Below are positions 2,909 through 42,116 of a DNA stretch of 64,000 nt, piece by piece (within the stretch, counting starts at the first letter, position 1; the number at the start of each line of letters is the position of its first letter). Position numbers and translations under genes: made by a program. The DNA comes from a virus, in IMG/VR virus record IMGVR_UViG_3300024255_000011, positions 32,001 to 96,000 of that record; one strand, 5' to 3'. Below the pieces are notes generated by a model. It ran no database searches, was not told where the DNA came from, and worked only from the letters and a program-made list of their open reading frames with translations.

Positions 2909-4141
2909 TTATGCACTAAACATGTTAGTTCTGATCAGTCCATCAGAAAGTTGACCAGTTGGACTTTGAACATAAGTCCCACCAATGGATACACCATTAG
3001 CCGCGGCGTCAGTTTCAGTGATGTACGCTCTGGGATATCCCAAGAGTTGGAATATAAATGTTCTGTCATACAAAGCTGGGTTGTCATCATTGAAACTTAG
3101 GATTCGTTCATACCTACCAGCTGCAGATACATACCCTGCGTTTTGAGTGGCAGAGTAAGCGAACTCACCTAGATTGTAATCGAAATCCGTTAATCCAGGG
3201 AAATCAGTCTTATCATTATAATAAACTGGAACTCTGTTTGCTACAAGTGGGGGAGCTGTAATTTTAGTAGTGAATACTGGATTATCAATTGGTGCCTTAG
3301 TATCAACCTCAGTTACAATTTCTTGTAGCACCTTTTTAGTTGGTTGATTATCCTGAACAAATCCAGTGCCAGTAAAAGCACCCATGTCCTGTGACAATGT
3401 AGGCATTCCACTCTGAATAATCAGAGCGTTAACCTTATCACTATTAGTAGTAGAAAGAGTTTCTAAGTCAGTGATTCTGACTTCATGATTATCAACATCA
3501 GTTCTAAGGTTAAAGATTTGGAGTTCGTGTTGATTGATTCTGACCTCATGGTCCACAGTCAGCAGTTGTAACTCATTAACATCTTTAACAAGACCACTGG
3601 TTACATCACCAACTGTTACTTCTAGTTGCTCAACCCTGAAAGTCAAACTTGAAAGTTCCCCTTCCAAATCATTGATGCTATCTGAACTCCCTCCAATAAG
3701 AGTTCTGTTATCACTACAGTAAAGTTCTAAGTCAGTTAGTGCAGCTCTGGTGGTTGCTTCAGTTCTAATGATTCCCTTAGGAAAATCTCTGAAGTAAATT
3801 GACTTTTCAGTTTCTCCAGTCAATTCAATGAGAGGTACAATCCTTTCGTCTTGGAAAGTGTCGTAATCTTCCAACTGAGAAACGATATTATCTACTTCTT
3901 GTTTGTTGTAAGTTTCATCTTTGTTATAGAAATCACCTGTTACATTATCACCAAGATTCACAGAACCATTGAATTGAATGTCTCCACTGAATTCAATGTC
4001 TCTTTCACCAATCCCTAAAACAATTTGCCTAAAACTTACCTTGGAAGTAGTGATGTCACCGTCATTAACGATGTAATAATCATCATCTGTGATTCTATCT
4101 ACCTTGATTTCAGGCAGAGAACTAATCCTTATGGTAGCCAT
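2909..4141 (-). CDS. Coiled-coil fibre protein with N-terminal IRISxLP domain
   Basis: MATIRISSLPEI...DYYIVND...TSKVSF, heptad repeats, the fibre motif KAPIDNPVFT, and a C-terminal 'AAANGVSIGGTY' cap. Confidence 0.7.
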   Translation of the reverse strand: MATIRISSLPEIKVDRITDDDYYIVNDGDITTSKVSFRQIVLGIGERDIEFSGDIQFNGSVNLGDNVTGDFYNKDETYNKQEVDNIVSQLEDYDTFQDERIVPLIELTGETEKSIYFRDFPKGIIRTEATTRAALTDLELYCSDNRTLIGGSSDSINDLEGELSSLTFRVEQLEVTVGDVTSGLVKDVNELQLLTVDHEVRINQHELQIFNLRTDVDNHEVRITDLETLSTTNSDKVNALIIQSGMPTLSQDMGAFTGTGFVQDNQPTKKVLQEIVTEVDTKAPIDNPVFTTKITAPPLVANRVPVYYNDKTDFPGLTDFDYNLGEFAYSATQNAGYVSAAGRYERILSFNDDNPALYDRTFIFQLLGYPRAYITETDAAANGVSIGGTYVQSPTGQLSDGLIRTNMFSA

Positions 4142-6983: not shown

Positions 6984-7769
6984 TTAGCCTCCGAAAAGTG
7001 TGTCGGCGTAGAGATAACCTTCGGCCAAACTGGCCTCCAGATTCCTTGCCTCAATGTGTGCAATGTAATCAGTCAATTGAGACTGAAGATTTGTGATGAT
7101 TTGTGGGTCATCTCCCAGTGCCTGTGCCAACTCATCAATAGAGTTAAGAGTTTCAGGTGCAATGTCAATGTCAAGGTTACCGATAGTCGTCTGCAAAGCA
7201 GAGATGTCAGTTGCATTCTGTGTGACATTATCAGACAACGACCCAAGGGAGGTTGTAAGACTCTGATTAACAGCGTCCACTGCTGCCTGGGTAGTTGGAT
7301 CGACTTCAAGAGCGGAAACTCTTGTGTTAATGTCTGTGATGAGATTGGGGTTATCACCCATCGCATCTGCTAACTCACTTAAGGAGTCGAGAGTGTCAGG
7401 TGCTCCACCAATGACCTCTGAAACCTTAGTGTCAACATAGGTTTTGGTGACTGGATCAATTTCCAGTACATCAATCCTGTCACTAAGTGCAGTGTCTCCT
7501 ATATTAAATGACGAAGTATTACCATCTATAGATGCCCGTAAGGCAACTCTAACGGTTTCAATAAGGGTTTCTGCATCTGTTCTGTTCTGAGAAACAATGC
7601 TTTCGAGACTTGACAGTGCACTTGCCGTGTCCGTAATAACATTAGACTTCAGGTTGTTATAACTAATCTTTCGAGATGTTCCTGTTTCCATGTCTGAGAC
7701 AAGGAACAGATCAACATCCGTAAGATCGGTTAGTGAGTTTAGCTCACTAATCTTTATGGATGCTGCCAT
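6984..7769 (-). CDS. Short fibre protein with N-terminal IKISEL domain
   Basis: MAASIKISELNSL...DLFLVSD...SRKISY; two 'APxTLxSxxELAxAxGDxP' fibre repeats; its stop codon abuts the next ATG in frame. Confidence 0.8.
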   Translation of the reverse strand: MAASIKISELNSLTDLTDVDLFLVSDMETGTSRKISYNNLKSNVITDTASALSSLESIVSQNRTDAETLIETVRVALRASIDGNTSSFNIGDTALSDRIDVLEIDPVTKTYVDTKVSEVIGGAPDTLDSLSELADAMGDNPNLITDINTRVSALEVDPTTQAAVDAVNQSLTTSLGSLSDNVTQNATDISALQTTIGNLDIDIAPETLNSIDELAQALGDDPQIITNLQSQLTDYIAHIEARNLEASLAEGYLYADTLFGG

Positions 7770-8161: not shown

Positions 8162-8686
8162 TTAATCGTACTGTTCTACTTCAATGGGTACGTTACGATG
8201 TTCTAGAATAAACAACTCATTAGATTCTGAGTATATATTGGCTAGAGTATCAGAAGATTCAATGAAGTCTGTATTGTCTTCAGGTATGATTGACATACCA
8301 AATTCTTCAGTAGTAAGTTTAAAGGAAACCCCATCTTGTCTTAATTCAAAGAATAGATCTACTTCATCAACAACAAAACCAGTAGTGTAAGAAACACCCG
8401 TATCATATACGGTAGAGTCATGTTGATATGGATATACAGGCCTTATTGTGTTATCAACATACCTTGCTTCCCATAGCATATTCTCATAATCACTACACAA
8501 AAAAGTGGCGGTTGGACCAGGGTATCCATCAGTCCTTGTAAAGTTAACTGGATTGCAATCTACATCATTTGAGTTATAGTCACCACACCAGTCATCATAA
8601 GTGTTACCATAAGCGTCTGTTCTATTGACACTGATTGGTTGTGGTGAGACGGGATTGCCATCAACGTCGCGTTTTACGTAAGCCAT
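8162..8686 (-). CDS. Acidic virion structural/hypothetical protein
   Basis: N-terminal 'YVKRDVDGNPVSPQP' motif repeated internally (DVDCNPV); C-terminal acidic 'LTTEE/IESSD/IYSESNELFILE' motifs; TAATG overlap with the upstream gene. Confidence 0.7.
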   Translation of the reverse strand: MAYVKRDVDGNPVSPQPISVNRTDAYGNTYDDWCGDYNSNDVDCNPVNFTRTDGYPGPTATFLCSDYENMLWEARYVDNTIRPVYPYQHDSTVYDTGVSYTTGFVVDEVDLFFELRQDGVSFKLTTEEFGMSIIPEDNTDFIESSDTLANIYSESNELFILEHRNVPIEVEQYD

Positions 8687-9948
8687 TAGTCGTCAGTAAA
8701 AACTGTTGATTTAAATTCTTCAAATGTTGTTGATGTTTCCAGTGCGTTGAACAGTGATACTCCTATAAAAGATCCTTCTGCTGCTTCATTAGCAATTGAC
8801 TCTACTCTTGTAATGTCATTAGAAGTGGCAATTCGTGATCTTCCTTTAAATCCAGTTTCAGGATCCTCATATCCATTATATGCCTGCGCCCCATCCTTTA
8901 GAGTAACACTGTCTTTAAGTAAATCATTTGAAGATGAAGCTTGATAGATTACTGATTCCAGAAATTGAATTCTTTGGAGAAGTTGTGCGTTTAGATCTTT
9001 CTGAGAAGAAATAAGAGAAGATGTATATGTACCATTCTCATCAATAATATTGCCATAACTTACATCAAGATTTACCGAAGTTTCGGTTGGTTCTGGATTA
9101 TATGACCTGACATATGTTAGTTCTCCAGTATTAATGTTATATCCTAGACCACCACCATGATTTTGTGTGCCATCATTCTCCTGAATGACCACATCAATCT
9201 CTGGGACGACTTCTAATGCCCAAGACTTGACATCTGATTGAAGACTTTCTGCAGAAAACTTGACCGGTCCTCCACTTTCAACTTCCAGTACACTCTGTAC
9301 ATTGGATTCGATATGAACACCACCTCTGGTCTTATTCGCAAGGATGTGAACTCCCTCTCCTACTTTGAACTTATCTCCACCGAACTCAGTGTCTGAGTCA
9401 AAAGTTTTAGCCCCGACAAATGATCCTATAACTTGACTGGCTTCAACTTTAATATCGACAAAGTTACCAGTACTTTCACCACCCTCTAAAGGAGGTTCAA
9501 CATTCATCAAAGTTTCATGATATCCAAATGGGAAGTCAGTTAAAAGTCCAGAGGTAATTGAGTATCCGCCCTCACCTGAGTACAATGAAGATGCAGTAAC
9601 TCCACCCACTTCATTAATTGAGTCTACCTTTATTACTTGATCTCCACCATCAACTCTTACCAATTCACCCACCAAATATCCAAATCCGCTGGCCACAACA
9701 TACATTTCTAGGATGACGCCTGTCCTAACTTTGATGTTAACAGTCAATCCCTGACCTACACTATCTGTGTCTAGGGTACTATTGTCATCCTGAAGAACTG
9801 AGTTCTCAGGGGTGGTTCCGACAGAATAGGCCTCACCAGTGTCATTTACCAGATCAGAGAAGTTGATATTGTCTTTTAGTAAAGTAGATACAAACCCAGT
9901 TTCGGGTTTGTATACCACTAATAGATCTGAAGATTGCAGTATTGCCAT
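8686..9948 (-). CDS. Fibre-associated structural protein
   Basis: N-terminal MAILQSSDLLVVYKP; internal 'GxGYxVG' beta modules; C-terminal 'TSTTFEEFKSTV' cap resembling that of the 914-aa fibre. Confidence 0.7.
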   Translation of the reverse strand: MAILQSSDLLVVYKPETGFVSTLLKDNINFSDLVNDTGEAYSVGTTPENSVLQDDNSTLDTDSVGQGLTVNIKVRTGVILEMYVVASGFGYLVGELVRVDGGDQVIKVDSINEVGGVTASSLYSGEGGYSITSGLLTDFPFGYHETLMNVEPPLEGGESTGNFVDIKVEASQVIGSFVGAKTFDSDTEFGGDKFKVGEGVHILANKTRGGVHIESNVQSVLEVESGGPVKFSAESLQSDVKSWALEVVPEIDVVIQENDGTQNHGGGLGYNINTGELTYVRSYNPEPTETSVNLDVSYGNIIDENGTYTSSLISSQKDLNAQLLQRIQFLESVIYQASSSNDLLKDSVTLKDGAQAYNGYEDPETGFKGRSRIATSNDITRVESIANEAAEGSFIGVSLFNALETSTTFEEFKSTVFTDD

Positions 9949-9967
9949 GATACTTTATGGTTATTTA

Positions 9968-11593
9968 TCAGTAGTTGGGGAGAAGGTAGAAGTTGTTGGG
10001 TAGGAAGAAATCAACAGTTTGATGAGAGTTGGCCACCAAACTTGGCATCTTAGTAGATACCTCATCAACCCTGTTGTGTTTCTGACTTAGTGAGGTTGAC
10101 AACTCAGTGTTTGAGACGATTGATGTCAATCCAGATGCACCTATGTCAGCAGTCTTACCGCTGATTGAAATTCTCCCTTCAAGTTCCTCAACTTTGAGTG
10201 CACTGTATGTTCTGCCTGTTACAGTATTGAGTGTACTTGTAGTTACAATTTCAGGAATATCGTCATCAGTCAAGCTATCAAGTTTCTGTTTGTCTGATGC
10301 AGACATAAACCCACTATAACTTGAGTATATGTCTAGGTCACCAGTATCAGTCAGGATTACTTTTGCGTCCTTGATTGAGATGTTGTATACATTTTCATCA
10401 GTACTACTTCGTTGAGTAATTATTGAATAGTGAGGATTGCCATATCCCTCATTATTACCTGGAACATAAACAGGTACTTGAATACTTGTAATTTGTGAGT
10501 TGGAAACGCTGTCCTTGATAAGAACAAACTCATTGTATCTAAGAGTATCAATTATTTTTTCAGTCCAAATGATCTTATCATTTTTGGTTACTGTAATCGT
10601 ACCAGTTGCTGCAGTTTCGTCAATCTTTACACCGACTATTGCTTCTCCTACATTACCAATTGTTTCGTTTACAATAAAGAGTTTGTCACCATCTTTATAA
10701 GCAATATGACTTGAATTCGTTGAGATAGTTGCATTAACAACCTCACCTTGAACCATTGTCAAGTCCAGTCGCATTCCACTGCCTTGGATATTGTTGCGAC
10801 GAGGTATTGTTTCAACACCGTAACTGTAACTTTCAAGAGAAGAACTAGCAAAGTAATATCCACCAACTAATTCTCGATCATTTGATTCTCCGTCTTCATT
10901 CTGAACAAACTCAAAATCTGTTACTGCTCCAACGGAACTAACATCCGTGATCTTAACATAAACTCGATCACCTACTTCAGGTGTCTTCTGTCTAAACTCA
11001 ATAATATCATCTACTTCATAATTAAATCCACCCTGACTAATTACTGCGTCAGTAGTCCTAATGAATCCATCGATAACTGAAACCGTTAACAAAAACCCAT
11101 AAGATTTGGAGGCGTCTGTTAGATTTCTCTGTCCAGTTTCAACTCCCTCACCAAAGGTTGGGATTGTACCATTCAGTCCTCTGTAGTTATTTCCACCTTC
11201 AAACAATTCAACACTGGTAAATTCATCATCAGAAACACCTTTCCACTCAGATGTCTTCAGAGTGAGTTTGCCATCTGGATGTTCAGCTAGGTCTGGATTG
11301 ACAATATAAAAGTCACCAGTGTTGAGATTCTGTGTGTCTGCGGGTGGTTGTAGGTCTTCTGTTACCTCTCCAACAAAGTTTAGTGTGTTGGGGAAGTTAA
11401 CATCAAGGTATCCCGTTTTCTCGTCATAGACGAAGTTTTTAGATGGGAATACTTTACCTGCCACTCCACTGATCTGATCTCCCTGTTTGGCATTGGGTAC
11501 TGTCAGACCTTCAACTACTGTATTTCTCTTAGCTGTAAAATACGAGTCACCCCTTTTAACAATAAACTGATCGGTATCTTGAATAGTGGACAT
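9968..11593 (-). CDS. Fibre-associated structural protein
   Basis: N-terminal MSTIQDTDQFIVKRG; 'LNFVG...GDFYIV' domain; the fibre motif GFMSASDKQKLD; C-terminal NFYLLPNY. Confidence 0.75.
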   Translation of the reverse strand: MSTIQDTDQFIVKRGDSYFTAKRNTVVEGLTVPNAKQGDQISGVAGKVFPSKNFVYDEKTGYLDVNFPNTLNFVGEVTEDLQPPADTQNLNTGDFYIVNPDLAEHPDGKLTLKTSEWKGVSDDEFTSVELFEGGNNYRGLNGTIPTFGEGVETGQRNLTDASKSYGFLLTVSVIDGFIRTTDAVISQGGFNYEVDDIIEFRQKTPEVGDRVYVKITDVSSVGAVTDFEFVQNEDGESNDRELVGGYYFASSSLESYSYGVETIPRRNNIQGSGMRLDLTMVQGEVVNATISTNSSHIAYKDGDKLFIVNETIGNVGEAIVGVKIDETAATGTITVTKNDKIIWTEKIIDTLRYNEFVLIKDSVSNSQITSIQVPVYVPGNNEGYGNPHYSIITQRSSTDENVYNISIKDAKVILTDTGDLDIYSSYSGFMSASDKQKLDSLTDDDIPEIVTTSTLNTVTGRTYSALKVEELEGRISISGKTADIGASGLTSIVSNTELSTSLSQKHNRVDEVSTKMPSLVANSHQTVDFFLPNNFYLLPNY

Positions 11594-11946
11594 TAGAGGC
11601 TCTCCAATTCTGGAACGTTATCAAAGTTTAAAGTATGAGTGATCATTCGAACTTCTTCTTGTCCAATTATCTGTGGTCCTGGATCTTCAACATTAACACC
11701 AGTGGATGCTGCGAACTCAAGTTTAGGCCCACTTGTGCCTCCACCAGATCCACCAGAACCATCGCCACTAGGAGTACCAAAATCGAAGCTAAGTACCCAC
11801 CTTCCCACTAAGTGTCTTTCTGACACTGGGAGATCTTGTTTTTGGTCACTATCACTAGTGATGTAAGTCCAGACTTTGTATCCATCTCCTGTGGAAAGTG
11901 CCTGTCCCTCAGTGGCGGGTAATGCGACTGGGTATAAGATCGACAT
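11593..11946 (-). CDS. Small putative adaptor protein
   Basis: N-terminal (Y/F)P...WTY...RW domain, Gly linker, C-terminal LNFDNVPEL peptide; late promoter at 11965-11971. Confidence 0.7.
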   Translation of the reverse strand: MSILYPVALPATEGQALSTGDGYKVWTYITSDSDQKQDLPVSERHLVGRWVLSFDFGTPSGDGSGGSGGGTSGPKLEFAASTGVNVEDPGPQIIGQEEVRMITHTLNFDNVPELESL

Positions 11947-11974
11947 GGTATCAACTTTTATTATTATTTATCAC

Positions 11975-12024
11975 GACAAGATCCATTGTGAACATGTTAG
12001 ACAAGATCCATTGTGAACATGTTA
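11975..12024. repeat. Perfect 25-bp tandem duplication
   Basis: gacaagatccattgtgaacatgtta at 11975-11999 and 12000-12024, spanning the stop codon of 11997..13199. Confidence 0.95.
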
Positions 12025-13199
12025 CCTGGATTGCGATAGTACTCTACTGCTTCATTTATATGGTCGCCGGGTCTGAATATTCTAACAAATTTTCGATCCT
12101 CCTCTCCACCAGCGGAGTCAAAATTGCATTGACCTTTATATTCCATTTCTAATAATTTTACATCCCACATATCAAGCCACATAGAACTACCAACATAACC
12201 AGATTGCCTGGATGAGTGAACCGAAGTGGCAATGAACCCAACACATATCATCTTTTCATCCCAGACCTTATTGGCTGCGTTCTTGCTTATGGTAAGTGTA
12301 GCCACGCCTTGAACCCGCGGGTTCCATGTACTATTGCCTTTTGGGCCATGTTCTTCCCAAATCTTCCCACCTCTTGAGTGGGTGGTAAGATTATATTCTC
12401 TTATCTTGTTATTAGCGATCCAGTACGACCCCGATTTTGTTGGCCAATCTGGTGTACCACTTTGACTCCAATCTTTAGTGACAGTGATACACTCTGCCAA
12501 GTATATTTTGGCGTCACCACTTTTAACATATGCAAGACAGAAAGCTTCAATTGGATTCCCCCCATGTTGATTATTTAAAGAAGGAAGTAAGGATTTTTTA
12601 TCTTCATTGAAGTGACATTCATACCTAAAGGTTATCGCTGATGCTCTGATATGATGGGATATTTTATCAGAATCGATGGTTGTATATGAATCTTTTCCAA
12701 ACTTGGCACCTTCCATCACACCCCACATAAACCTGTTTGAAACATTATTGTCTTGTCTTTGATATGCTCTAAACTTTACGGAACCATATTGTATACCCCT
12801 ACCATTATTAAAAAGTGTTTTGGCATTAATACCTTGTGAACTTATTTTGTTATTTTTATTGGTATCATTAATTGACCAATTGCTCCTACTCCATTCCAGC
12901 GGTTTATCATTGCCACTGAAGGCTTCACTCTCACCCATCAAATACTTAAATTTCCATTTTTTAGTCTTATTGGTACAATCTTCATAATTATAGTCAGTAA
13001 ACCCATCAGAGGTCCCGCTAAACTTTGAATTGTCGTTGCCTTTAGGACTAAAGTATCCCCCTCCCACATCGAATTCGGGTTTGGCCATTTCGAGAGCAGA
13101 ATTCAGGGGGGGATTGATTGTACTGTGTCTAAAATTTGAGGATATTCTTACAGATCGAAATGTTGCAAGACCCGTTTGACTAACGTTTGAATCTGTCAT
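11997..13199 (-). CDS. Putative receptor-binding/adhesin protein
   Basis: Aromatic/Asn/Lys-rich globular sequence, coupled (TAATG) to the upstream fibre gene; similar to 25986..27089 and the C-terminus of the 3007-aa protein. Confidence 0.55.
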   Translation of the reverse strand: MTDSNVSQTGLATFRSVRISSNFRHSTINPPLNSALEMAKPEFDVGGGYFSPKGNDNSKFSGTSDGFTDYNYEDCTNKTKKWKFKYLMGESEAFSGNDKPLEWSRSNWSINDTNKNNKISSQGINAKTLFNNGRGIQYGSVKFRAYQRQDNNVSNRFMWGVMEGAKFGKDSYTTIDSDKISHHIRASAITFRYECHFNEDKKSLLPSLNNQHGGNPIEAFCLAYVKSGDAKIYLAECITVTKDWSQSGTPDWPTKSGSYWIANNKIREYNLTTHSRGGKIWEEHGPKGNSTWNPRVQGVATLTISKNAANKVWDEKMICVGFIATSVHSSRQSGYVGSSMWLDMWDVKLLEMEYKGQCNFDSAGGEEDRKFVRIFRPGDHINEAVEYYRNPGNMFTMDLV

Positions 13200-15931
13200 T
13201 AGCTGACCCTCAATTGTAATTGAGAACTACTACTACTGTAGTAAAATCCACCCACCTCGACGTTACTTTGTTGGCTTTCTCCCAGATAACAAACTTGATC
13301 ACCTGGGATAAATGGAGTGGCTTTTGTTGAAGTAGGTACCCATGCGCCCCCTTCACCCTTTTCAGGGTCCCAAATTAAACTGTGGCCATCTTGAAGGTCT
13401 TTTCCGTCACCATAATCAAAATCTTGTAATTCGTTCGCTGAAATCTTGTAAACATCAACAGAGACCTGACCATTCTCATCGGTCGACATCTTCAGATTGT
13501 TAGACCGCGATACTAAGTATGATGTCTTGTTGGCTAGCCCGCTTCCGCCACCGCCGGTTTGAGGGTATTCACACCATAAGAAATCCTTATTAACAGCATC
13601 GGTGCCAAAGATACATCGATCCACATTTTGGATTGTCTTACCTAAAACATTTAAAATTTTATCTCGGATTTCCAGTGTAGGGGTTTCTGAGAATGAGAAG
13701 GTAAAGTTTTGACTGTTAGTGTTAACAAAGGTTACACCATTCGCATTTGCCACCGCTGGATAGTAAGTTGAAGTCGCTTTCTCTCCGTCGAATTTAAAGA
13801 AGGTTCTATCTCCATTATCCTCATGTAATAAAAGGTCCCTATGTCCAATTGTAGTTTTACCAGTATTTTCAACTGAGAATAACTTATAACCTTCTGTGGT
13901 GTGTATTTTGAGTCCGTCCTCAGCAGTAGCACTTGGGATTCTGATGTGCAAACGACCTGTCATATTATCACCTGACTTGAATACAAACAAGTCATTGACA
14001 TCATCAAGGGTCAGACCAGAGGTTTTATCATAGAACTTAATTTTGTAATTAAATCCCTGTTGGATAACATCAGAGTTCTTAAAGAGTTCAACACCAGTGA
14101 TGATCATTACACCATTAGGCTTCACCTCCATTGCTACAGATCTATAAACTGCGTATGCAGTCGTTCTTGCATCTGAAGATGAGATTTCAAAATAATCACC
14201 AACCTTTAGGAGTGCACCAAAATCAAGTGTAACAGGATCATCAGAACCAATCACTGATGTCCTGGGATCAATAACAACAACGTCTACGTCTCTTTGTTCT
14301 GTATTACCACCATCAACCTGGTAATCTTGAACAAAAGTTTTCCAATCAAAGATCTTACTTTCTGAGTAAAGAGGATCATTTGAATCTGCAGGTTTAATAG
14401 TTGCCGCAATACATTGAGCCCAAAAAAGACCATTTTCGTATTCAGTTGGGTCATAACTACTAGCGTCGCCCACGTCATATCCTGGATAATGTTTGGACGT
14501 ATTTGTTGGATCCTCAATATCATATCCTATATTAAGACTATCATCACATTCTGATGACTCTCCATCTAAAAGCATCCTATACTGGAAGACATCAGTGGCG
14601 TTTGCCAGTGTATCGATTCTCTGACTGACGTCTGTAATCTTATTATCCAACAATGAATCCATCAGATCCACATAGGCTCTAGGAGGGATAATACCAGGGT
14701 TAGCAGAATACTCTGGACTAATCAGGTTAGGGGGGAATAGATATTCTGAGGCTTTCTCAAGTACTACTCTGTCAGTGATAGTGGTGAACGCTGGGGTTGT
14801 AATGGCTCCCAGGTCATCAAATACTTCTGGTTCATACTTAATTTTTGTTGCACCATTGTGGTTAATGTGCCATGGTCCATTGAAATTGAATTTAGTTATT
14901 TCATTGGTAACAATATTAACAATATTCTCTTTAGGATTTGTGATTTCCAAGACTGGAAAATTCTGATCTAACTGAGAGAATCCAGTGATTTTGAAGGTTG
15001 GTCCAATGACTGGGTTTGTCGTTTGGATACCAGTTGTAAGTGCAGCTTGAATTGGGTTATTTACATCAGTGATGGATACAAACAACCCTCCACTCATAGA
15101 GTCACCAATCTTATTGACATATACTTTATCTAACGTGCTCTGTAGATCGATGACTAGCTTTACAAGATATCTGTTATCGCCATCTTGTACAGAAGGTTTT
15201 CCTAACAGAGGTTGTGATGCAACATGCTCAACATCAAACTGATACAGATAAGAAGGATCAGACTGTGTGCTGTTGGCCTCAAGAACTTTTGGGCCAATGT
15301 TTATGATCTTATAAAAACCATAATTAAAATTATCAACAACATCATTACCATTACCATCCTTAGTAATGTTTATAATCTCAATTAGAGACCCGAGGGTAGC
15401 TAGATCTAGATCGATCTTTTCGCCAACTGCTGGGGTGTCACTGATGAACACAGACAGTACATCTTGCCATAGATAATTAGATGTAGCGAGATAGAATTTT
15501 TTTCTGGAATCCTCAATCGTACTACCTGCAATGCTGTCACTATAGACAGGCAAGATAGATCTCTTACAAGCATCAAATTCTTCACCGATTGTGCCTGCAC
15601 AATTATTGGCACTCAGAACCTCAAAGTTTCCTGCGGCAACTGCATCAATCGCGTATGTGTACTCGTGTTGGATAAGAGTATCATAAAGTTCATTAGAGAT
15701 CTTGACAATTCTGTCAGTCAACCCATCAATCTGGGCGTAAATTTCAGAATCTCCATCCTTTCTGTCTTGAATTTCTCCTTCAATCTTTTGATCTAGTTCA
15801 CTCAGATCTGTATTGAAATCGTCAAGTACGTATCCTGCGATATCAGAAAGGGTAGTAGTTCCTTTTTTATATCGTTTGGATCCGCCATCACCTCTTTGAA
15901 CGTAAAACTGATCGTTTGGTAAAAGTGCCAT
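13199..15931 (-). CDS. Tail fibre-like protein
   Basis: Coiled coil, two repeated domains ending 'V.K.GD.M.G.L', DAVNK motif, 'DGHSLIWD...WVP', and C-terminal 'GGFYYSSSSSQLQL'. Confidence 0.75.
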   Translation of the reverse strand: MALLPNDQFYVQRGDGGSKRYKKGTTTLSDIAGYVLDDFNTDLSELDQKIEGEIQDRKDGDSEIYAQIDGLTDRIVKISNELYDTLIQHEYTYAIDAVAAGNFEVLSANNCAGTIGEEFDACKRSILPVYSDSIAGSTIEDSRKKFYLATSNYLWQDVLSVFISDTPAVGEKIDLDLATLGSLIEIINITKDGNGNDVVDNFNYGFYKIINIGPKVLEANSTQSDPSYLYQFDVEHVASQPLLGKPSVQDGDNRYLVKLVIDLQSTLDKVYVNKIGDSMSGGLFVSITDVNNPIQAALTTGIQTTNPVIGPTFKITGFSQLDQNFPVLEITNPKENIVNIVTNEITKFNFNGPWHINHNGATKIKYEPEVFDDLGAITTPAFTTITDRVVLEKASEYLFPPNLISPEYSANPGIIPPRAYVDLMDSLLDNKITDVSQRIDTLANATDVFQYRMLLDGESSECDDSLNIGYDIEDPTNTSKHYPGYDVGDASSYDPTEYENGLFWAQCIAATIKPADSNDPLYSESKIFDWKTFVQDYQVDGGNTEQRDVDVVVIDPRTSVIGSDDPVTLDFGALLKVGDYFEISSSDARTTAYAVYRSVAMEVKPNGVMIITGVELFKNSDVIQQGFNYKIKFYDKTSGLTLDDVNDLFVFKSGDNMTGRLHIRIPSATAEDGLKIHTTEGYKLFSVENTGKTTIGHRDLLLHEDNGDRTFFKFDGEKATSTYYPAVANANGVTFVNTNSQNFTFSFSETPTLEIRDKILNVLGKTIQNVDRCIFGTDAVNKDFLWCEYPQTGGGGSGLANKTSYLVSRSNNLKMSTDENGQVSVDVYKISANELQDFDYGDGKDLQDGHSLIWDPEKGEGGAWVPTSTKATPFIPGDQVCYLGESQQSNVEVGGFYYSSSSSQLQLRVS

Positions 15932-15935
15932 TTTA

Positions 15936-16157
15936 TTAAATCTCGGTTAAATCCTGAACATCAAAGTCGGTAATAATATTACCTTTAGATGCAATGTGAG
16001 TAATTGGTAAGTTTGCCACGAACTCTACAGAATCGAATCCGACAAGTTCCCAACGGTTCTTGCCTTCACTATACTGCCAAGTTCTGTTGATTTGGGTACC
16101 ATTTACGATGTTGGTACCATTATCAACTGAGGGGTCTGTTGGAAACGGTAGTGCCAT
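15936..16157 (-). CDS. Small putative adaptor protein
   Basis: MALPFPTDP...WQY...NRW domain plus C-terminal DFDVQDLTEI peptide; late promoter at 16174-16180. Confidence 0.75.
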   Translation of the reverse strand: MALPFPTDPSVDNGTNIVNGTQINRTWQYSEGKNRWELVGFDSVEFVANLPITHIASKGNIITDFDVQDLTEI

Positions 16158-16183
16158 GTTTTTTAGTTTTAGTTATTTATTAG

Positions 16184-19100
16184 TTATTCATCGGGATGAG
16201 GTGGGTTGTCATATTGATGTATTGGTGCCAAATTAGAAATGACGAAAGTCCTACCAGTTTTAACATTATCCTCACCAACCCAGATACATGCCGAAATACC
16301 TTTAAAGTGAACTCCAGCTGGGATCTTTTGATCACCCATAAGTCTCATATGAATGAGGTTATTGTTTTTATTGAGTTGGTTCATCTGATGATTAGATGAA
16401 GTATTATCGAAGCTGTTTCTGAACTTGTAGTTTGTAGAGCTGTCTGGAGTAAGTTTAACTGCAACACTCTTAAGAATTGTGTCGGGTTCCAAAAGATCTG
16501 GAACATCAAAACTTAGATGCATCTGAACAATCTGCCAGTTTCCTGCGTTTTCTGTTTTGCTATTGTAATCATAGAATAACATGTCAAACTCGATACCAGG
16601 TATGAATTCTCCATTGGGTATCTTAAAACCAAATGGGTCTTTCTCGGTACCATTAAGTATCTCCCAACCATAGCAGTGGTTAGATGAATTAGATGAATAC
16701 ATCACATCTGTGGTTAACCCAGCTCCTCTGACACTAAAGATATTGTCAATATTATTAGCGGAACCAAAAGTGGTTGGATAAGAAGTGACATTGCGTCCAC
16801 TATCATAGTTGGAAGCTAACTTGTATTGGGCTCCTGCGTATGATTTCCAGAAACCTTGTTTACCCATTTGAGGTGAGTATGTCAAGCTAGGTTGGAACCA
16901 CTTCTTTCTGATATCAAATCCAGTCAATTGACGATTTTCATCAATCGAAGTGTCAATGGCATATGATCGATATGAAGTAGTACTAGTTTTGTAGGGGTCA
17001 TCAAGTTCTACGTTTCTGAACCCAGTATCACCGTCCCATGGAACATATTTACGTAATGCCTTTCTGACATTGCCACCATCCAACTGAGTGTAATTGAATC
17101 CATGAGTTGCAGTCAAGTTCATGACTTCGAACTCTTTTTTGAGCGTGTTATCACCAGTAGATTTGACACACTTTGCATTTGTCAAATGGAACAAGTATCC
17201 ATTGTGTCTGACTCTCATTATTCTAGCCCACGCTCTGACAGCATGGTCTGCAACAAAGTTGAAATATATTGGATCATTACTTAACCCAGTATAGAACTCT
17301 TCATCATTTGTAATGTACTCTGGGTTAAATGGATCACCATATGTACGTTTATTATCTTCAGTAATCTCAATCTTTTTCCTTCTGATTGGATACTTGTTTC
17401 CAGGTCCTTCATCTACCATCTCAAGTAGAGTTTCGAATGGTGCCATCGCGGCGAAGTATAGCAAGAACCCAAGTAGAGCCGCCAACAGTGCTGCAATTGC
17501 CATGAGGATTTCCTTCAGGAAGGGAATATCATCAAGGTGAAGATCTTTATGTACCCTCTTATATTTCCAAGGACTTAAGTGACCATCTGGACTCCAAGTT
17601 TTTGGGTTAATACCACTCGTTGGCGTGTTTTTATTACTCTTGTCGCAAACAACAAAGAATATATAATCATACCCTATTGGAGCTGTAAGAGTAAACTTTT
17701 TGTCTACTTTTGAATTTGGATCCAATACTCTACTATTATACTTGAAATCAGTCTTAGTCGGCCGCTTATCACCAAAGGGATTGTTGGGCCCGTCTCCAAC
17801 AGATTTACACCACACAACTTGATACCTAAGATCTTTTGATTTCGTGTTGTTGTTATAAGACGGAACACCACTTTCCATCCATGAAGCATACTTAAACTCA
17901 TAAGTACTACCACCAATAATCTTACCACCATTTTTAGGAGGTTGTGCGGCACTATATCTCCATCTTGTTTCTGAGAGATCGAACTCTTTGCCTGATACTA
18001 GATTTTTGTTTCCAGGGAAAGACGGACCTCTTTGCCACTCTTTCTTTTTGATACGAACAGGTACTTCCTCTCCGCGTGGACTCCAGTCTTCAAATGATCT
18101 ACCGGAATCAGCATCGAAGTTACCAACACCAAAGATAATATACTTCGGATGTACATCCTCGTGAGGCTCAATTGGAACGGTACTTCCCTTTGCTGAGCGT
18201 TTAGCGAATGTGCCTTGATAATGGAAATAGAATCTATCATTATTATCATTCGGACTCAAATGCTTTCTCTCCTCAACCACAAACACGGACAGAGCGAAAT
18301 CGATATTTTGTGTGAGTTCAACATAGAAGTCATCAAGGTGAGCATCACCATTGATACTCAATGTATTCAGTGGTTTGATCCACTTAGAATCCGTAAACTC
18401 TGGTAAATATTGTTTCCCCGGTGCTCCTGGTTGGTCCCAAGTATGACCAGTATCACCCCAATAGGCGGGCCCAGTTATTGAATCTACCTCTCTGAAGGTC
18501 AATGGTGAAGGTTCTCCCTTAGGACTCCAATCAGTAACTAGAGGAGTTTCGTGTATGGCCTTGATGTATGTTGCAGACAGGATGAGGCCATCCTTGGAAA
18601 CGTCGATATTGATTTCCTGTTGGGTGTCCTGAAAATTTGCAATCTTCTTAAATTGTAGATCAACCCTATTTGTTAATGGATTTAAGGGATCTGGATTTTG
18701 GGTTGGATCAAACTCATAAATTTGGATTTCTTGGAAGTGAGCGAGCGCAGTCGCTGATTTTGGTTTAACTTGGTATCTACGACCAGCTTTGACCTTAATG
18801 TATCTCAGAGGTGATTCGAAATGAGTGTTACCAAATTCAGGAGGATCTACAGCTTCTTGTTCACCACCCCAATACAGGGGCCCTTCAGTTTTCCACTTTT
18901 CTTGTTCTTTAAATTTAAAACGAACAGGTTCCCCATCTCTATTAAATTTTCCAATAGCTTGCTTGCCATACCAACCATAGAATATCCTTGTTACTCCCTT
19001 AGGAGTCTTAAAGGTCATGCCATCACTCTGAGTGTCGGTTGTAATTACTGGACCCTTTTCATAGAACATATCCCTTACTTTGTCGGGTATATGATAGCTA

Positions 19101-22100
19101 TTATCGACAATGAGCCAACGAAGTAGATCCTCTGGGTGTGTACCTTGTAGTGGGATGGGAGGCCAAGACTTCGTATTATCACTTTCATCCTCAGCCCATT
19201 GTTGCATTTGGGCCCAGTTATTTTTGTTATCGTCTTTGATGTACCATATCTGATACGTACCACCTGATGAATTGAAGTCTGTATTCTTTTCAATAGTGTA
19301 GTAGGTTTCTGCCTTGACAGAATGTGTATTGAGACCTTTATAAAAATGGGGATCTGCTACAGATGGGAAGGTGTCCTTGCCCGATGAGTAGTATGCTGGC
19401 CCACTATAGGGCATCTCAGTCAGTGCCTCAAACTTGTGGTTGGTGGGTTCACCACTCTTACTCCAACTGTCTGGTCCTCTTTCAGAAGCATCGAAGTCAA
19501 ATGCACCAAAGACAATGGTGTCATTTTCTGCAGTGAAATCAAAGTGAGACAATTGTCTGTTTACATATCTACCAGCAACCCAATCTCTAAAGTTTGATGC
19601 ATCAGGCTTCAACTGTTTGATTTTATTTGAACTCCACATACGCATCTCATGAGGAAGATGGAGTTTATAATCATCAGGTTTGTAGATGTTATTATTGTAT
19701 ACATCATTTTGAAGTTTAGTGATCCTATACCTTCTACCTTTCCTGATGTTTGGTTCATCGTTCTTTTCGCCTAGAACAAAAGTATCACCATAGTAGTAAT
19801 CATTTTGTCCACCAGCAGAATGTGTTGGGTCTTCACCCCTCTCAATGTTAGGATACGCGTAGTAGTCAGTTACGTGCGCTCCTGGTTGGAATCCAGGGTT
19901 TGGAAGGTGTCCCTCCTGATCATACCCAGCCCAGTAAGCGGGACCTTGGAGCTCCTCAAGAGGCTCCTCTTTCCAGTAGACTCTAAGGTTTTCTCCTCTT
20001 GGATTCCATCCAGTTAGACCTGTACCTCCTTCTGATACTCTCCTTGCTCCAGTATGCCATGCACCTGATACTACCACACTCCAATTGTAGTCAATAATTT
20101 CTGGGAAGGTGAAATAAATTGCATTATCCTCACCATTGAAACTTCTATTATTGCGTTGGTGCCAGGCCCATCTATCTTCAACAGGAACATCCTGGTTACC
20201 ACAAACACCCATCATCCTAAAGTCTTTATTACCTGGTACGTTTAGGTCTCTTGGTGCTTGACCAAGAAGGAAAACGTGCATGTAGTTGGGGTTTGGTTTT
20301 TCAAGAGTAGGGTCAGCGGATGTCCATATCTTATACCTCTTACCTGGTTGCCATTGTACAGCAGTGCCTTCGTCAGTTGGTACCGCACCATTCAGAGGGT
20401 TAACCCAATGATTATTCTTAAGTTGATCAGTTGTTACGAGTGAGTACTTATTTGGATATGTCGCATCATTTTCCCAGTCAATCCAGTACTGAGACATATC
20501 ATTCGCATCTTTTTTGACCTCTCTGTACAATTCCAAGTAAAGAGGTTCACCTTTTTTAGACCACTGTTCCTCAGATTTGCCAGCAGCATATACCTTATAT
20601 TGAATATATTCTGATTGACAGAAGATGGTAACTACCTGCTCATCGTTAAGCCCTGATCTCCATACAAACTCCTCCATCTGGAATTCTTGAGCATCATTCT
20701 GAGACAGACCCTCCCTCTTAATGAATCTAAAGACAATATCAACGTTTGGTGTTCTGGCAGTTTTCTTAAATGCATATAGAATGCGTTGATTGGCGGGAGG
20801 TGGATTCTTAACGTCTATGATATCATCAGAGTTAATGTCAAATACACGTTCATATTGTTTTTTGGTTTGATCACTTTCATATAATTGACCCTCTAATTCT
20901 GACTGTGTTTGTCCGTCTAACCTTAGGATCTCTTTCATCTCTTGTGTGAGATGTATCATTGGTTTGTCGTACCTTGACCAGTTAGGTTCTTTGGGGTTAT
21001 TGCTGCTGTAAACTTCTTCGGAAGCCCAGAATCCACAACCTGTAACATCAGGCACTTCAGTGATTTCTACATCAATCCCTTCACCAAATCTACTCCAATA
21101 TTCATTAATGGGTCTGTCTACTAGGGGATTGCCCTTGTCATCATCTGTTTGGTCATAACGGAATGCACCAAAGAATAGGTAGTCTCCTTGAGCTTCAACC
21201 TCAATTGTTTTTGAAGCCCCTGAGTGTTTTGGTCTCAGAAGCAAAGAGTTATCATCTTCGTAGTGGTAAAACTTTCTGTTGGGATCACTACCAATTTCTT
21301 TATTTCCGAAACTAGGATCTTCGTAGTAATTAGGTTGAATACATCTATCATCTGTCCCCCAAATTATTCTATGGGTGTAGATCATGTTATCCCCAGGTGT
21401 GATATGGTATTTTCTACCTTTCCTTACCCTAATTGAGTTGTATGTCTCATTGTAATCATTCAAAGGGAAGTTATAATATGCACTATTGAAGTCTGGATAT
21501 CCTCTAAATCCCTTTCTGACATCAGTAACTGATCCAAAATCTCCAAATGCCCAGTAAGCAGGACCTTTTCTCAAGTCTCTGTTGCCCCTCGCACCACCCA
21601 TGTGCTCAATTGATACCTCTGGGGCTTGATTTACATGGTCACTTGTACTGATAGACACTGGCTCACCATTATTTTTCCAGTCTGCCTTAACACGGTTCGT
21701 GTTTCTGGCATGAAAGATCATATGACTAGAAGGAGGTGTGACAACAAACCCATTGTAATCATTCTTAAGTATAGTTCCACCGTAAATGAAGTTTACATGA
21801 TCATCTGGGAGATCTTTTTCTGGGAAGTTGTCAACATCAAGTCCGTGATTTGTCTCAAGTACAAAGTAAATGTCATAATCATACTTGGTTCTAGTGTCTA
21901 GTTCACCAGTATTAACATCACCTGAGTACGCAGAAACTTTTAATCTTTCGCCTTCTTCTACACGCACATTATTTGGTCTCTGACCAAAGAGACCATCAAA
22001 ATCTTCGCCAGGCAGATATCTATTAAAATGATTCAGTGGTGTTTGCCACACATCATCATGGAAATTGGGTCTTTCTCTGTTGATATGGAGCTCACCCCAG

Positions 22101-41846: not shown

Positions 41847-42116
41847 CTATCCTTTACCTTTGGGTGCATTCCTTAAGTTTTCTAACCAATAAAACTCATA
41901 TCCTCTCGTTCTAATAGTGTCATCTGGATCTCTTGGAGTCAGTCTTTGACTAAAGTCATCTCTGACCCAGTGATTCTGAGCATCATCTTTATCAACATAC
42001 ACATCCCACTTATAACCATCAAACACATATTCGATGCCATTTGCAGGATCAATCCAACTATCACCAGCCCCTGGTTCATTTGGAAAATTTAATTCTAGGT
42101 GGGCACAGTTGGTCAT
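41847..42116 (-). CDS. Small putative adaptor protein
   Basis: LNFPNEP...YVFDGYKW domain and C-terminal YEFYWLENL; late promoter at 42135-42141. Confidence 0.7.
   Translation of the reverse strand: MTNCAHLELNFPNEPGAGDSWIDPANGIEYVFDGYKWDVYVDKDDAQNHWVRDDFSQRLTPRDPDDTIRTRGYEFYWLENLRNAPKGKG

What the first reader, a model, noticed from the sequence alone, without database searches (positions are those of the whole stretch)
8686..16157. A docking domain apparently split across gene boundaries: head-to-tail strand-complementation chain of fibre proteins
Seen in sequence: five proteins start with an intact domain [IxIS/TxLP]-[DxFIV...TxK(V/I)S(Y/F/W)xxL] (1943, 2909, 6984, 38050, 40355). Three others start with only the second half: MALLPNDQFYVQRG (13199), MSTIQDTDQFIVKRG (9968) and MAILQSSDLLVVYKP (8686). 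In all three cases the gene immediately upstream ends in a peptide resembling the missing first half: ...DFDVQDLTEI* precedes 13199, ...LNFDNVPELESL* precedes 9968, and ...NNFYLLPNY* precedes 8686. The same C-terminal peptide also ends 41847 (YEFYWLENL), 40355 (VDFHRIKTLP) and 38050 (YAFDELRTLP). The 9968 protein has both an acceptor N-terminus and a donor C-terminus, so it could extend a chain. Inference: a C-terminal 'plug' strand completes the N-terminal 'socket' of the next fibre, conceptually like pilus donor-strand complementation, letting the phage concatenate fibre segments. I know of no description of this assembly code in cyanophages.
Basis: partly seen in the sequence, partly recalled or inferred. 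Interest (0 to 1): 0.88.

Follow-up and report, generated by a model that had tools for sequence, protein, structure and literature searches.

The report
Split docking domain linking cyanophage fibres
In this T4-like cyanophage and its relatives, a small fibre-start domain is often cut in two, with its first motif ending one virion protein and the rest starting another, which suggests but does not prove that fibre proteins join by rebuilding this domain.

Summary
The pattern is real, but binding is untested.

**Intact domain.** All genes lie on the minus strand. Five proteins start with an intact ~45-aa domain: motif A (IxISxLP) followed by motif B (DxFIV…TxKIS). It has 495 database clusters and sits almost always at residue 1.

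**Acceptors.** Three proteins (910, 541 and 420 aa) start only at motif B. hhalign places their start at column 17 of the intact domain (E 1.2e-5).

**Donors.** Upstream proteins end in motif A. A matrix built from C-terminal "plugs" of other phages recognises all 34 N-terminal A motifs, and only in register. In this genome it picks the 73-, 117-, 120-, 321- and 3007-aa C-termini. Four of these directly precede B-only genes (p = 1e-4).

**Conservation.** All three junctions persist in a relative whose five fibre-cluster proteins are 37-62% identical, and S-CRM01 has the same split. A four-gene chain lies outside the window.

**Caveats.**
- The 541→420 pair fails every plug test.
- The 41847, 40355 and 38050 tails are marginal or unsupported.
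- Plugs also precede intact domains.
- In S-N03 and S-B68 the gene upstream of the socket has no plug.
- An AF2 monomer does not pair A with B.

I found no publication or curated family. This scan has noted analogous split joints with other domains in other cyanophages.

The parts
15936..16157 (-). 73-aa donor (adaptor). It has an N-terminal FPxxP...W module and ends in the plug FDVQDLTEI* (nt 15939-15965).
   Evidence: ORF. 62% identical homologue with the same tail in relative G001. Plug matrix p 0.004. ATAAATA motif at 16174-16180 just upstream.
13199..15931 (-). 910-aa fibre, acceptor. It starts with motif B only (MALLPNDQFYVQRG; socket roughly nt 15824-15931), followed by a coiled-coil-like stretch.
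   Evidence: B-only HMM 45 bits from residue 1. hhalign to the second half of the intact domain. First 20 aa 60% identical to the G001 homologue versus 42% overall. Stop TAA TAA A ATG, different frame.
11593..11946 (-). 117-aa donor (adaptor) ending in the plug LNFDNVPELESL* (nt 11596-11631).
   Evidence: TAATG stop/start overlap. Plug matrix p 0.0016. G001 homologue ends LDFGVLPKLENL*. ATAAATA at 11965-11971.
9968..11593 (-). 541-aa protein. It is an acceptor (MSTIQDTDQFIVKRG) with a conserved but atypical C-terminal tail FLPNNFYLLPNY*.
   Evidence: B-only HMM 47.5 bits. Last 15 aa 67% identical to the G001 homologue versus 39% overall. The tail fails the plug matrices (p 0.18).
8686..9948 (-). 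420-aa protein, a variant acceptor (MAILQSSDLLVVYKP), with its own ATAAATA motif at 9962-9968.
   Evidence: B-only HMM 33.6 bits. G001 homologue starts MSLLSAQDLFVVYKPEKG.
16184..25207 (-). 3007-aa giant structural protein whose C-terminus carries the best motif A in the window (FVISNLAPI, nt 16220-16246), 11 residues before the stop.
   Evidence: p 0.0005. G001 homologue ends ..DMIISNLKPTIHY*.
1943..2860 (-). 305-aa coiled-coil protein with an intact A+B domain at residues 1-45, immediately upstream of gp13 (the position of fibritin in T4).
   Evidence: AF2 of residues 1-70: pLDDT 79.8, hairpin 22-27/31-36 plus helix 37-46.
2909..4141 (-). 410-aa protein with an intact A+B domain at the N-terminus.
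   Evidence: AB profile 71.7 bits.
6984..7769 (-). 261-aa fibre protein with an intact A+B domain at the N-terminus.
   Evidence: PHROG tail-fibre repeats in the body.
38050..40338 (-). 762-aa protein with an intact A+B domain and a marginal plug-like tail (YAFDELRTLPIQTLKLRRNK*).
   Evidence: Plug matrix p 0.021.
40355..41446 (-). 363-aa protein with an intact A+B domain and a marginal plug-like tail (VDFHRIKTLPNRKI*). The next gene has an intact domain.
   Evidence: p 0.021. G001 homologue ends FDFHRIKWLPRR*.
41847..42116 (-). 89-aa FPxxP protein directly after the gp12-like gene. It is the positional counterpart of clear plug-bearing adaptors in S-N03, S-B68, S-CREM2 and S-CRM01. Its own tail (YEFYWLENL...) is not significant.
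   Evidence: p 0.12.

Best explanation
The ~45-aa fibre-start domain has two parts. Motif A is an extended segment (PhixPhi[ST]xLPxPhi). Motif B is a beta-hairpin plus a short helix (DxPhiPhiV..G/D..T/Y.K/RPhi....L). In this phage lineage the domain also exists in a split form.

One virion protein ends with motif A, the 'plug', with the stop falling right after ..LPxL(P). Another begins, after Met plus 5-6 residues, with motif B, the 'socket'.

The most likely reading is that plug and socket associate non-covalently and rebuild an A+B-like unit, probably within trimers. That would tether the B-only fibre to the protein carrying the plug.

Plug carriers are of two kinds:
- Small adaptors (73, 117, 88 aa; two of them have an FPxxP attachment module at the other end).
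- The distal ends of fibres (321, 120, 3007 aa).

So both adaptor-to-fibre joints and head-to-tail chains are possible.

Shown: the sequence anatomy, its conservation, the statistical link between plug and socket genes, co-transcription signals, and virion presence of the S-CREM2 counterparts. Inferred: the physical contact, its geometry, its stoichiometry, and which plug goes with which socket.
For: 1. B-only N-termini are homologous to columns 17-50 of the intact domain (hhalign E 1.2e-5). All start M-x-[LI]-x-x-x-D, at the same cut position.

2. A matrix built from 15 C-terminal plugs of other phages scores all 34 N-terminal A motifs above the 99th percentile of random 9-mers. The mean is 8.1 against -10.8 +/- 5.2. 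It works only in register: shifts of 1-2 residues give -13 and -12.

3. That matrix, with no training data from this genome, picks the C-termini of the 73-, 117-, 120-, 321- and 3007-aa proteins. Four of the six hits directly precede B-only genes (p 1.1e-4). The reverse test gives Mann-Whitney p 2e-4.

4. Plug tail + Met + 5-6 residues restores a 6-13-aa distance between the A core and the B aspartate. In the intact domains this distance is 7-10 aa (sequences).

5. All three window junctions are conserved in relative G001, whose five fibre-cluster proteins are 37-62% identical. Termini are more conserved than bodies. S-CRM01 has 82 aa ..FNIASLAVLP* followed by MPLLDTDQLVV. L021 has 207 aa ..FDIKLLNPIS* followed by MALQPTDLFVV. 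ENA, JGI and Logan relatives keep both ends.

6. A chain 88 -> 321 -> 120 -> 601 aa lies in the same genome.

7. Natural proteins carry A+B in tandem or between coiled coils (P0146, P0079, P0137, P0135). So A+B is an in-line fibre unit that a gene split could divide.

8. Five genomes with sockets all have ..L..LP*-type plugs. Three cyanomyovirus genomes without A+B or B domains have none.

9. S-CREM2 ORF115 (B-only), ORF127 and ORF128 (plug carriers) are in the virion proteome (PMC10665884 Table 3).

10. Donor and acceptor are separated by -1 to 4 nt, with a late-promoter-like ATAAATA only upstream of the donor.
Against: - No binding or complex model was obtained.
- In the AF2 monomer of an intact domain (pLDDT 79.8), motif A is not a beta-strand laddered onto the B hairpin. 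So 'strand completes the sheet' is not backed even in cis.
- The profile test on concatenated junctions is weak: gains of 0-2.4 bits, combined p about 0.003.
- Plugs also sit upstream of proteins that already have their own motif A (40355 -> 38050, S-B68, S-CREM2, L017).
- In S-N03, S-B68, S-CREM2 and G002 the gene upstream of the socket has no plug.
- The 541 -> 420 pair has no recognisable plug.
- The co-occurrence across genomes is confounded by shared ancestry, since all positives belong to one cyanophage cluster.
- The plug motif is short, so individual calls are uncertain.
Confidence: 0.55

Rival explanations
1. Motifs A and B are two independent attachment modules rather than halves of one fold. 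Motif A, at an N- or a C-terminus, would dock to a common site on the virion or on another fibre, and B would dock to something else. Adjacency of plug and socket genes would reflect shared operons and history, not a direct A-B contact.
For: - AF2 does not pair A with B in the intact domain.
- Plugs occur before intact domains and far from sockets.
- B occurs alone, doubled (601 and 361 aa) and at a C-terminus (530 aa).
- At least 10 of the 150 best A+B proteins also end in a plug.
Against: - The cut is always at the same place in the domain, and the A-to-B spacing is restored across the junction.
- There is significant plug-to-socket adjacency.
- A and B are contiguous in about 495 protein clusters and in tandem units.
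Confidence: 0.22
2. The split is a neutral scar of gene fission, or of recombination inside the conserved domain-coding DNA of fibre cassettes. The two proteins would not need each other's termini.
For: - Fibre genes are mosaic. The 910- and 541-aa bodies have no relatives in the phage or IMG/VR collections beyond one lineage.
- The A+B coding region is the only shared sequence between many fibres.
Against: - Plug and socket termini are more conserved than the protein bodies and persist in distant genomes.
- Plugs end at a fixed position (..LP*) in many unrelated proteins.
- The tails are translated parts of virion proteins.
Confidence: 0.12
3. Donor and acceptor are made as one polypeptide by programmed frameshifting or readthrough, or the acceptor start is mis-called, so the domain is not really split.
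For: - Very short gaps between the ORFs (-1, 4 and 19 nt).
- In G001 the 103-aa and 543-aa ORFs are in the same frame, separated by a stop and one codon.
Against: - The three junctions use different frames and spacings, and one has a double stop (TAA TAA A ATG).
- Spacing differs again in S-CRM01 (27 nt) and G001.
- No shared slippery motif was seen when reading the junctions.
- Every acceptor starts with ATG at the same domain position.
Confidence: 0.04

Closest known systems
T4 long tail fibre (gp34-gp35-gp36-gp37)
   Same: Separate gene products, encoded side by side, join end to end non-covalently. Trimeric gp36 binds the N-terminal region of gp37, and half-fibres join spontaneously (PMC3004832).
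   Different: - No sequence relation was found (Pfam, PHROGs, NCBIfam).
- The T4 review I read (PMC3004832) does not describe its joints as one small domain divided between the partners.
- Here a recognisable intact version of the domain exists in the same genome.
Branched receptor-binding-protein systems (G7C gp66/gp63.1, CBA120 TSP1-4, Klebsiella KP32-type anchor plus conserved N-terminal peptide).
   Same: Short conserved terminal modules decide which fibre or spike hangs on which. Small adaptor-like proteins occur.
   Different: - Those systems use a T4gp10-like branching domain as the receiver, and the N-terminal peptide of the second protein is the inserted part.
- Here the inserted part is a C-terminal tail and the receiver is an N-terminal hairpin-helix.
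- No T4gp10-like domain was detected.
Chaperone-usher pilus donor-strand complementation (from my own knowledge)
   Same: Conceptually, a fold left incomplete in one subunit is completed by a terminal segment of the next, giving a head-to-tail polymer.
   Different: - There is no Ig-like pilin fold, no chaperone or usher, and no N-terminal extension as donor.
- The AF2 monomer gives no evidence that motif A is a sheet strand.
- This is an analogy only.
T4 fibritin (wac) N-terminal domain binding gp13
   Same: The 305- and 410-aa coiled-coil proteins with intact A+B lie immediately upstream of gp13, where wac lies in T4. In T4 the fibritin N-terminal domain binds gp13 domain III (PMC12929629). 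So the intact A+B may be a virion-attachment domain.
   Different: - The A+B profile gave no PDB chain with E below 0.4 and did not list fibritin.
- There was no fold match.
- Homology is therefore untested beyond gene position.
Split-domain fibre joints noted by this scan in other cyanophages (e1-5730723, e1-5877596 and others; unchecked AI notes)
   Same: The same idea: a small domain divided between the end of one fibre protein and the start of the next.
   Different: - Different domains are involved (a four-stranded GDIWYDT-type domain and an Ig-like repeat).
- Those notes are likewise sequence-based only.
- For the Tuc2009 BppU-BppA precedent named there, my term search of the paper returned nothing on this point.

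Membership tests
   Five window proteins score 63-83 bits. There are 495 clusters at E<=1e-3, and nearly all of the 150 best hits listed match from residue 1. No Pfam, PHROG or NCBIfam model covers it.
Intact A+B fibre-start domain (uncurated) | The 910-, 541- and 420-aa proteins contain the B half but lack the A half | tested here: met
   hhalign places A6 columns 4-35 on A2 columns 17-50, E 1.2e-5. The A+B profile aligns them only from about position 15.
Intact A+B fibre-start domain (uncurated) | The upstream C-terminal tail is equivalent to motif A | tested here: inconclusive
   - Met for the 73-, 117- and 3007-aa tails (p 0.0005-0.004).
- Marginal for 40355 and 38050 (p 0.02).
- Not met for the 541- and 89-aa tails.
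- Class-level equivalence of plugs and motif A is strong.
Chaperone-usher donor-strand complementation | Incomplete Ig-like pilin fold with a groove filled by a donated beta-strand | tested here: not met
   The AF2 model of the domain is a hairpin plus helix, not an Ig-like fold. Motif A is not modelled as a strand.
Chaperone-usher donor-strand complementation | Periplasmic chaperone and usher genes | not tested
   No search for these genes was run. The locus is a phage structural gene cluster with fibre, baseplate and neck genes.
T4-type multi-protein tail fibre (gp34-37) | Sequence homology to gp34, gp35, gp36 or gp37 | tested here: inconclusive
   No family hit for donors or acceptors. There are only generic tail-fibre repeat hits in 6984.
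T4-type multi-protein tail fibre (gp34-37) | Separate adjacent gene products that join end to end in the virion | not testable with these tools
   Gene adjacency, co-transcription signals and virion presence of the S-CREM2 counterparts are consistent. Physical joining was not tested.
Branched RBP systems with a T4gp10-like branching domain | T4gp10-like domain in the anchor protein | tested here: inconclusive
   No Pfam hit of that kind in the 10 proteins scanned. Giant proteins were not scanned domain by domain.
T4 fibritin N-terminal domain | Sequence or fold similarity to the solved fibritin N-terminal domain | tested here: inconclusive
   The profile versus PDB sequences gave nothing with E below 0.4. 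Foldseek and VIA-align gave no match with Z above 2.2. The domain is small, so absence is weak evidence.

The most novel reading that the evidence does not exclude
Plug and socket variants form a wiring code. Each C-terminal A variant would pair with a particular N-terminal B variant. For example, the atypical FLPNNFYxLP tail would pair with the atypical ..VVYKP.. socket, and both are conserved together in G001.

A genome's set of plugs and sockets would then specify a defined chained or branched multi-fibre apparatus. Here that set is roughly 10 A-only tails and 10 B-only units, by a loose count that includes weak calls. Cassettes could then be exchanged between phages simply by keeping the termini.
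Probability: 0.2. Interest if true: 0.8.

Novelty: new variant of a known kind. Interest (0 to 1): 0.62.

Why it matters
T4-like cyanophages carry many large, unannotated fibre genes. How these are mounted on the virion is unknown. A short, recognisable pair of terminal motifs that predicts which protein hangs on which would help in three ways:
- Fibre architecture could be read from genome sequence.
- It would explain how receptor-binding modules are swapped between phages.
- It would give a simple handle (terminal tags) for experiments on host range in cultured models such as S-CRM01 or S-CREM2.

The intact domain itself (about 495 protein clusters) has no curated family. The claim is still sequence-level only.

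Tried and rejected
**Structure prediction**
- AF2 of the tandem-repeat protein P0135 without an alignment failed (pLDDT 32) and is uninformative.
- Foldseek against PDB and VIA-align wide on the intact-domain model gave no meaningful match.
- The PDB sequence profile search gave nothing.

**Finding more relatives and their gene context**
Gene context of the ENA, JGI and Logan relatives found could not be checked.
- The phage collection and IMG/VR have no relatives of the 910- and 541-aa proteins by single-protein search.
- The alignment of all B-only N-termini was too diverse for the search for related loci. The sub-alignment found only G001.
- A degenerate DNA pattern for MxxxDTD.. gave only S-CRM01 plus chance hits.

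**Statistical tests that underperformed**
- The A matrix trained only on N-terminal motifs is too strict to find most true plugs genome-wide.
- A matrix trained on 10 metagenomic plugs alone separates positive from negative genomes poorly. A terminal regex does better.

**Literature**
- I found no paper on strand complementation in tail fibres.

**Readings rejected**
- Frameshift or readthrough fusion: different frames and a double stop.
- Sequencing error: the split is conserved in several independent assemblies.
Full report
**1. What is there**

The window is part of a 108,850-bp T4-like cyanomyovirus record (window = genome 32001-96000). Its gp13 neck protein (643-1863, minus strand) is 45% identical to that of Synechococcus phage S-CRM01.

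All genes in the finding lie on the minus strand.

Upstream of gp13 lies a long block of fibre-like genes with no curated family for the termini discussed here (Pfam, PHROGs, NCBIfam).

**2. The intact domain**

Five window proteins (ORFs 1943, 2909, 6984, 38050, 40355) begin with one ~45-aa domain. It has two parts:
- Motif A: PhixPhi[ST]xLPxPhi.
- Motif B, after 7-10 residues: DxPhiPhiV/I-turn-T/S.K/RPhi.[WYF]..L.

A profile of nine such N-termini was searched against 1.84 billion representative proteins.
- It finds 495 clusters at E<=1e-3 and 39 at E<=1e-10.
- Nearly all of the 150 best hits listed match from residue 1.
- The exceptions are instructive: A+B in tandem (P0146, P0079), A+B-coiled coil-A+B (P0137), and four to eight tandem units (P0135, P0105). 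So A+B is a self-contained in-line unit of fibres.

AF2 with a 38-sequence alignment models residues 1-70 of the 305-aa protein at pLDDT 79.8. It gives a beta-hairpin (22-27, 31-36) and a helix (37-46). Motif A (residues 4-10) is extended and not laddered to the hairpin.

No solved structure matches by sequence or fold.

**3. The split form**

The 910-aa (13199-15931), 541-aa (9968-11593) and 420-aa (8686-9948) proteins begin with Met, five or six residues, and then motif B.

Profile-profile comparison of 13 such N-termini with the intact domain aligns them to columns 17-50 of 56 (prob 81%, E 1.2e-5). They therefore lack about the first 13-16 residues, which is motif A.

The ORFs immediately upstream are as follows.

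| Upstream ORF | Tail | Junction DNA |
|---|---|---|
| 73 aa (15936-16157) | ..DFDVQDLTEI* | TAA TAA A ATG |
| 117 aa (11593-11946) | ..LNFDNVPELESL* | TAATG overlap |
| 541 aa (9968-11593) | ..FLPNNFYLLPNY* | TGA + 19 nt + ATG |

The junctions use different frames. One shared frameshift or readthrough site is therefore unlikely.

**4. Is the tail really motif A?**

Three tests bear on this.

(a) A matrix trained on N-terminal A motifs scores C-termini upstream of B-only genes higher than 564 other C-termini (11 pairs from several records, Mann-Whitney p 2e-4).

(b) The reverse test is stronger. A matrix was built from 15 C-terminal plugs of other phages and metagenomic proteins (consensus Phi-[DN]-Phi-[SD]-x-L-x-x-L-P*).
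- It scores all 34 non-redundant N-terminal A motifs above the 99th percentile of random 9-mers (mean 8.1 against -10.8 +/- 5.2).
- It does so only in the predicted register. Offsets of -1 and -2 give -13.4 and -11.6.

(c) The same matrix has no training data from this genome.
- It picks six C-termini here: the 73-, 117-, 120-, 321- and 3007-aa proteins, plus one small early-region ORF that is probably chance.
- Four of the six directly precede one of the seven B-only genes (hypergeometric p 1.1e-4).

Per-tail p values:

| Protein | p |
|---|---|
| 321 aa | 0.0003 |
| 3007 aa | 0.0005 |
| 117 aa | 0.0016 |
| 120 aa | 0.0023 |
| 73 aa | 0.004 |
| 363 aa | 0.021 |
| 762 aa | 0.021 |
| 88 aa | 0.051 |
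| 89 aa | 0.12 |
| 541 aa | 0.18 |

It is only weakly positive: per-pair p runs from 0.03 to 1, and combined p is 0.002-0.004. The motif is short, and B-only sockets form a divergent subfamily (R-x-G turn instead of N-D).

**5. Conservation and spread**

A 63-kb IMG/VR contig (G001) conserves all three junctions. Its gp12-like protein is 82% identical, and its five fibre-cluster proteins are 37-62% identical.
- 73 aa ..DFDIQDLNKV* followed by MSLLPHDQLYLQRS.
- 103 aa ..LDFGVLPKLENL* followed by MAKLTDTDQFIVNR.
- 543 aa ..FLPNNFYALPSF* followed by MSLLSAQDLFVVYKP.

Termini are more conserved than bodies. The acceptors' first 20 aa are 50-60% identical against 37-42% overall. The 541-aa tail is 67% identical against 39% overall.

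Other records show the same arrangement.
- S-CRM01 has 82 aa ..LSFNIASLAVLP* followed by MPLLDTDQLVVARSG. It also has a second plug (205 aa) and a second socket (325 aa).
- IMG/VR locus L021 has 207 aa ..FDIKLLNPIS* followed by MALQPTDLFVVQQG.
- Relatives in ENA, JGI and Logan keep both ends.

Outside the window, the same genome has a four-gene chain on the minus strand:
- 88 aa, ending ..LSTLNHLP...*.
- 321 aa, starting MTLQNNDLLLVGRG and ending ..MDLTTLSALPV*.
- 120 aa, starting MAIQNSDKLLVGRG and ending ..RNINTLPLLST*.
- 601 aa, starting with two tandem B units.

**6. Things that do not fit the simple 'next gene completes me' picture**

- Plug-type tails also precede proteins with their own motif A. 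Examples are 40355 -> 38050 here, the S-B68 giant fibre -> 601 aa, S-CREM2 112 aa -> 609 aa, and L017 1052 aa -> 1063 aa.
- At least 10 of the 150 best A+B proteins themselves end in a plug.
- In S-N03, S-B68 and G002 the single B-only fibre follows a gene without a plug. The same holds for S-CREM2 ORF115, whose neighbour ORF114 has no plug.
- The plug genes I found in S-N03 and S-B68 lie far away in those genomes, next to the gp12-like gene.
- Whole-genome counts:

| Genome | Plugs | B-only proteins |
|---|---|---|
| S-CRM01 | 2 | 2 |
| S-N03 | 1 | 1 |
| S-B68 | 2 | 1 |
| S-CREM2 | 2 | 1 |

- P-SSM2, S-SRM01, S-8S55, S-SM2 and RB11-B have neither A+B nor B-only domains. Of these, S-8S55, S-SM2 and RB11-B were scanned whole and have no ..L..LP* tail.
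- This fits a trans-acting pair that need not be adjacent. It is confounded by shared ancestry.

**7. Expression and virion presence**

A late-promoter-like ATAAATA motif lies 10-25 nt upstream of 17 gene starts on the coding strand. It occurs before the 73-aa donor (16174-16180), the 117-aa donor (11965-11971) and the 420-aa acceptor (9962-9968). It does not occur between donor and acceptor of pairs 1 and 2. Those pairs therefore look like bicistronic late units with coupled translation.

In S-CREM2 the published virion proteome contains ORF115 (B-only, 56 peptides), ORF127 (small plug adaptor, 1 peptide) and ORF128 (A+B...plug, 93 peptides) (PMC10665884 Table 3).

B-only proteins carry tip-type domains:
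- Tail collar PF07484 in S-CRM01 P0156.
- DUF285/BspA-type PF03382 in the 361-aa protein of this genome.

**8. Best reading**

The best reading is a split A+B docking unit. A C-terminal A tail of one virion protein associates with the N-terminal B hairpin-helix of another, tethering the second to the first.

Small proteins with an FPxxP N-terminal module plus a plug would be adaptors. Fibres with B at the start and A at the end (321, 120 and possibly 541 aa) would be extenders.

I put this at about 0.55. The rivals are:
- A and B as independent modules, with the plug docking elsewhere (0.22).
- A neutral fission or recombination scar (0.12).
- A translational fusion (0.04).

The pilus-like 'donor strand' geometry is an analogy only. 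The one confident model does not show A as a sheet strand.

**9. Comparison and novelty**

Head-to-tail non-covalent fibres are classical (T4 gp34-37, PMC3004832), and adaptor or branching systems are known.

What is different here is that the joint corresponds to a recognisable small domain. That domain exists intact in paralogues of the same genome, and it is cut at one fixed point.

I found no paper or curated family describing it. This scan has noted analogous split joints with other domains in other cyanophages (unchecked notes), so the general idea recurs.

I rate it a new variant of a known kind, interest 0.62.

**10. Limits**

There is therefore no complex model, and no gene context for several further relatives.

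Noticed in passing
outside the window: genome G000:C1 10623-14032 (locus L045 1624-5033), minus strand: Four-gene chain between the uvsY-like and uvsW-like genes: 88 aa (plug) -> 321 aa (socket...plug) -> 120 aa (socket...plug) -> 601 aa (two tandem B units). This is the clearest head-to-tail series in the genome.
   Followed up: partly
window 16220-16246 (C-terminus of ORF 16184-25207): The 3007-aa giant protein carries the best motif A of the window (FVISNLAPI) 11 residues before its stop. It is conserved in G001 (..IISNLKPTIHY*). The next gene is the 73-aa adaptor, not a socket.
   Followed up: partly
window, 17 sites on the minus strand, e.g. 2887, 4160, 9962, 11965, 16174, 31014, 38051, 41465, 42135, 43699, 53018: ATAAATA lies 10-25 nt upstream of gene starts, 17 of 18 occurrences on the coding strand. 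These look like T4-type late promoters and define the transcription units of the fibre block.
   Followed up: partly
window N-termini of ORFs 42141-43487, 41847-42116, 27089-28612, 25204-25956, 29854-30996, 15936-16157, 11593-11946: A second shared N-terminal module (xFPxxP..G..Y.....W.W) heads the gp12-like short fibre, several other fibres and the small plug adaptors. It may be the baseplate- or fibre-attachment end. There is only a weak Pfam DUF7360 hit (E 0.05).
   Followed up: no
outside the window: genome 96886-98478 (locus L046 886-2478), minus strand: A 530-aa protein with an A+B-like N-terminus also ends with a motif B (..ENDLFIINRRNGKRYRFNLEEV*). So B can sit at a C-terminus too.
   Followed up: no
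outside the window: genome 15407-16492 (locus L045), minus strand: A 361-aa protein with two tandem B units at the N-terminus and a DUF285/BspA-type repeat domain (PF03382). It has no adjacent plug gene.
   Followed up: no
window 643-1863 (gp13): The gp13 neck protein is 406 aa. Many cyanophage homologues align over only 64-70% of it in two pieces, suggesting an inserted middle domain. In T4 an extra gp13 domain binds fibritin, and two A+B coiled-coil proteins lie right upstream here.
   Followed up: no
window 9968-9997 and 9841-9948: The atypical tail FLPNNFYLLPNY* and the atypical socket ..DLLVVYKP.. are both conserved as a pair in G001. They might be a co-varying plug/socket variant, or unrelated to the A/B system.
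   Followed up: partly
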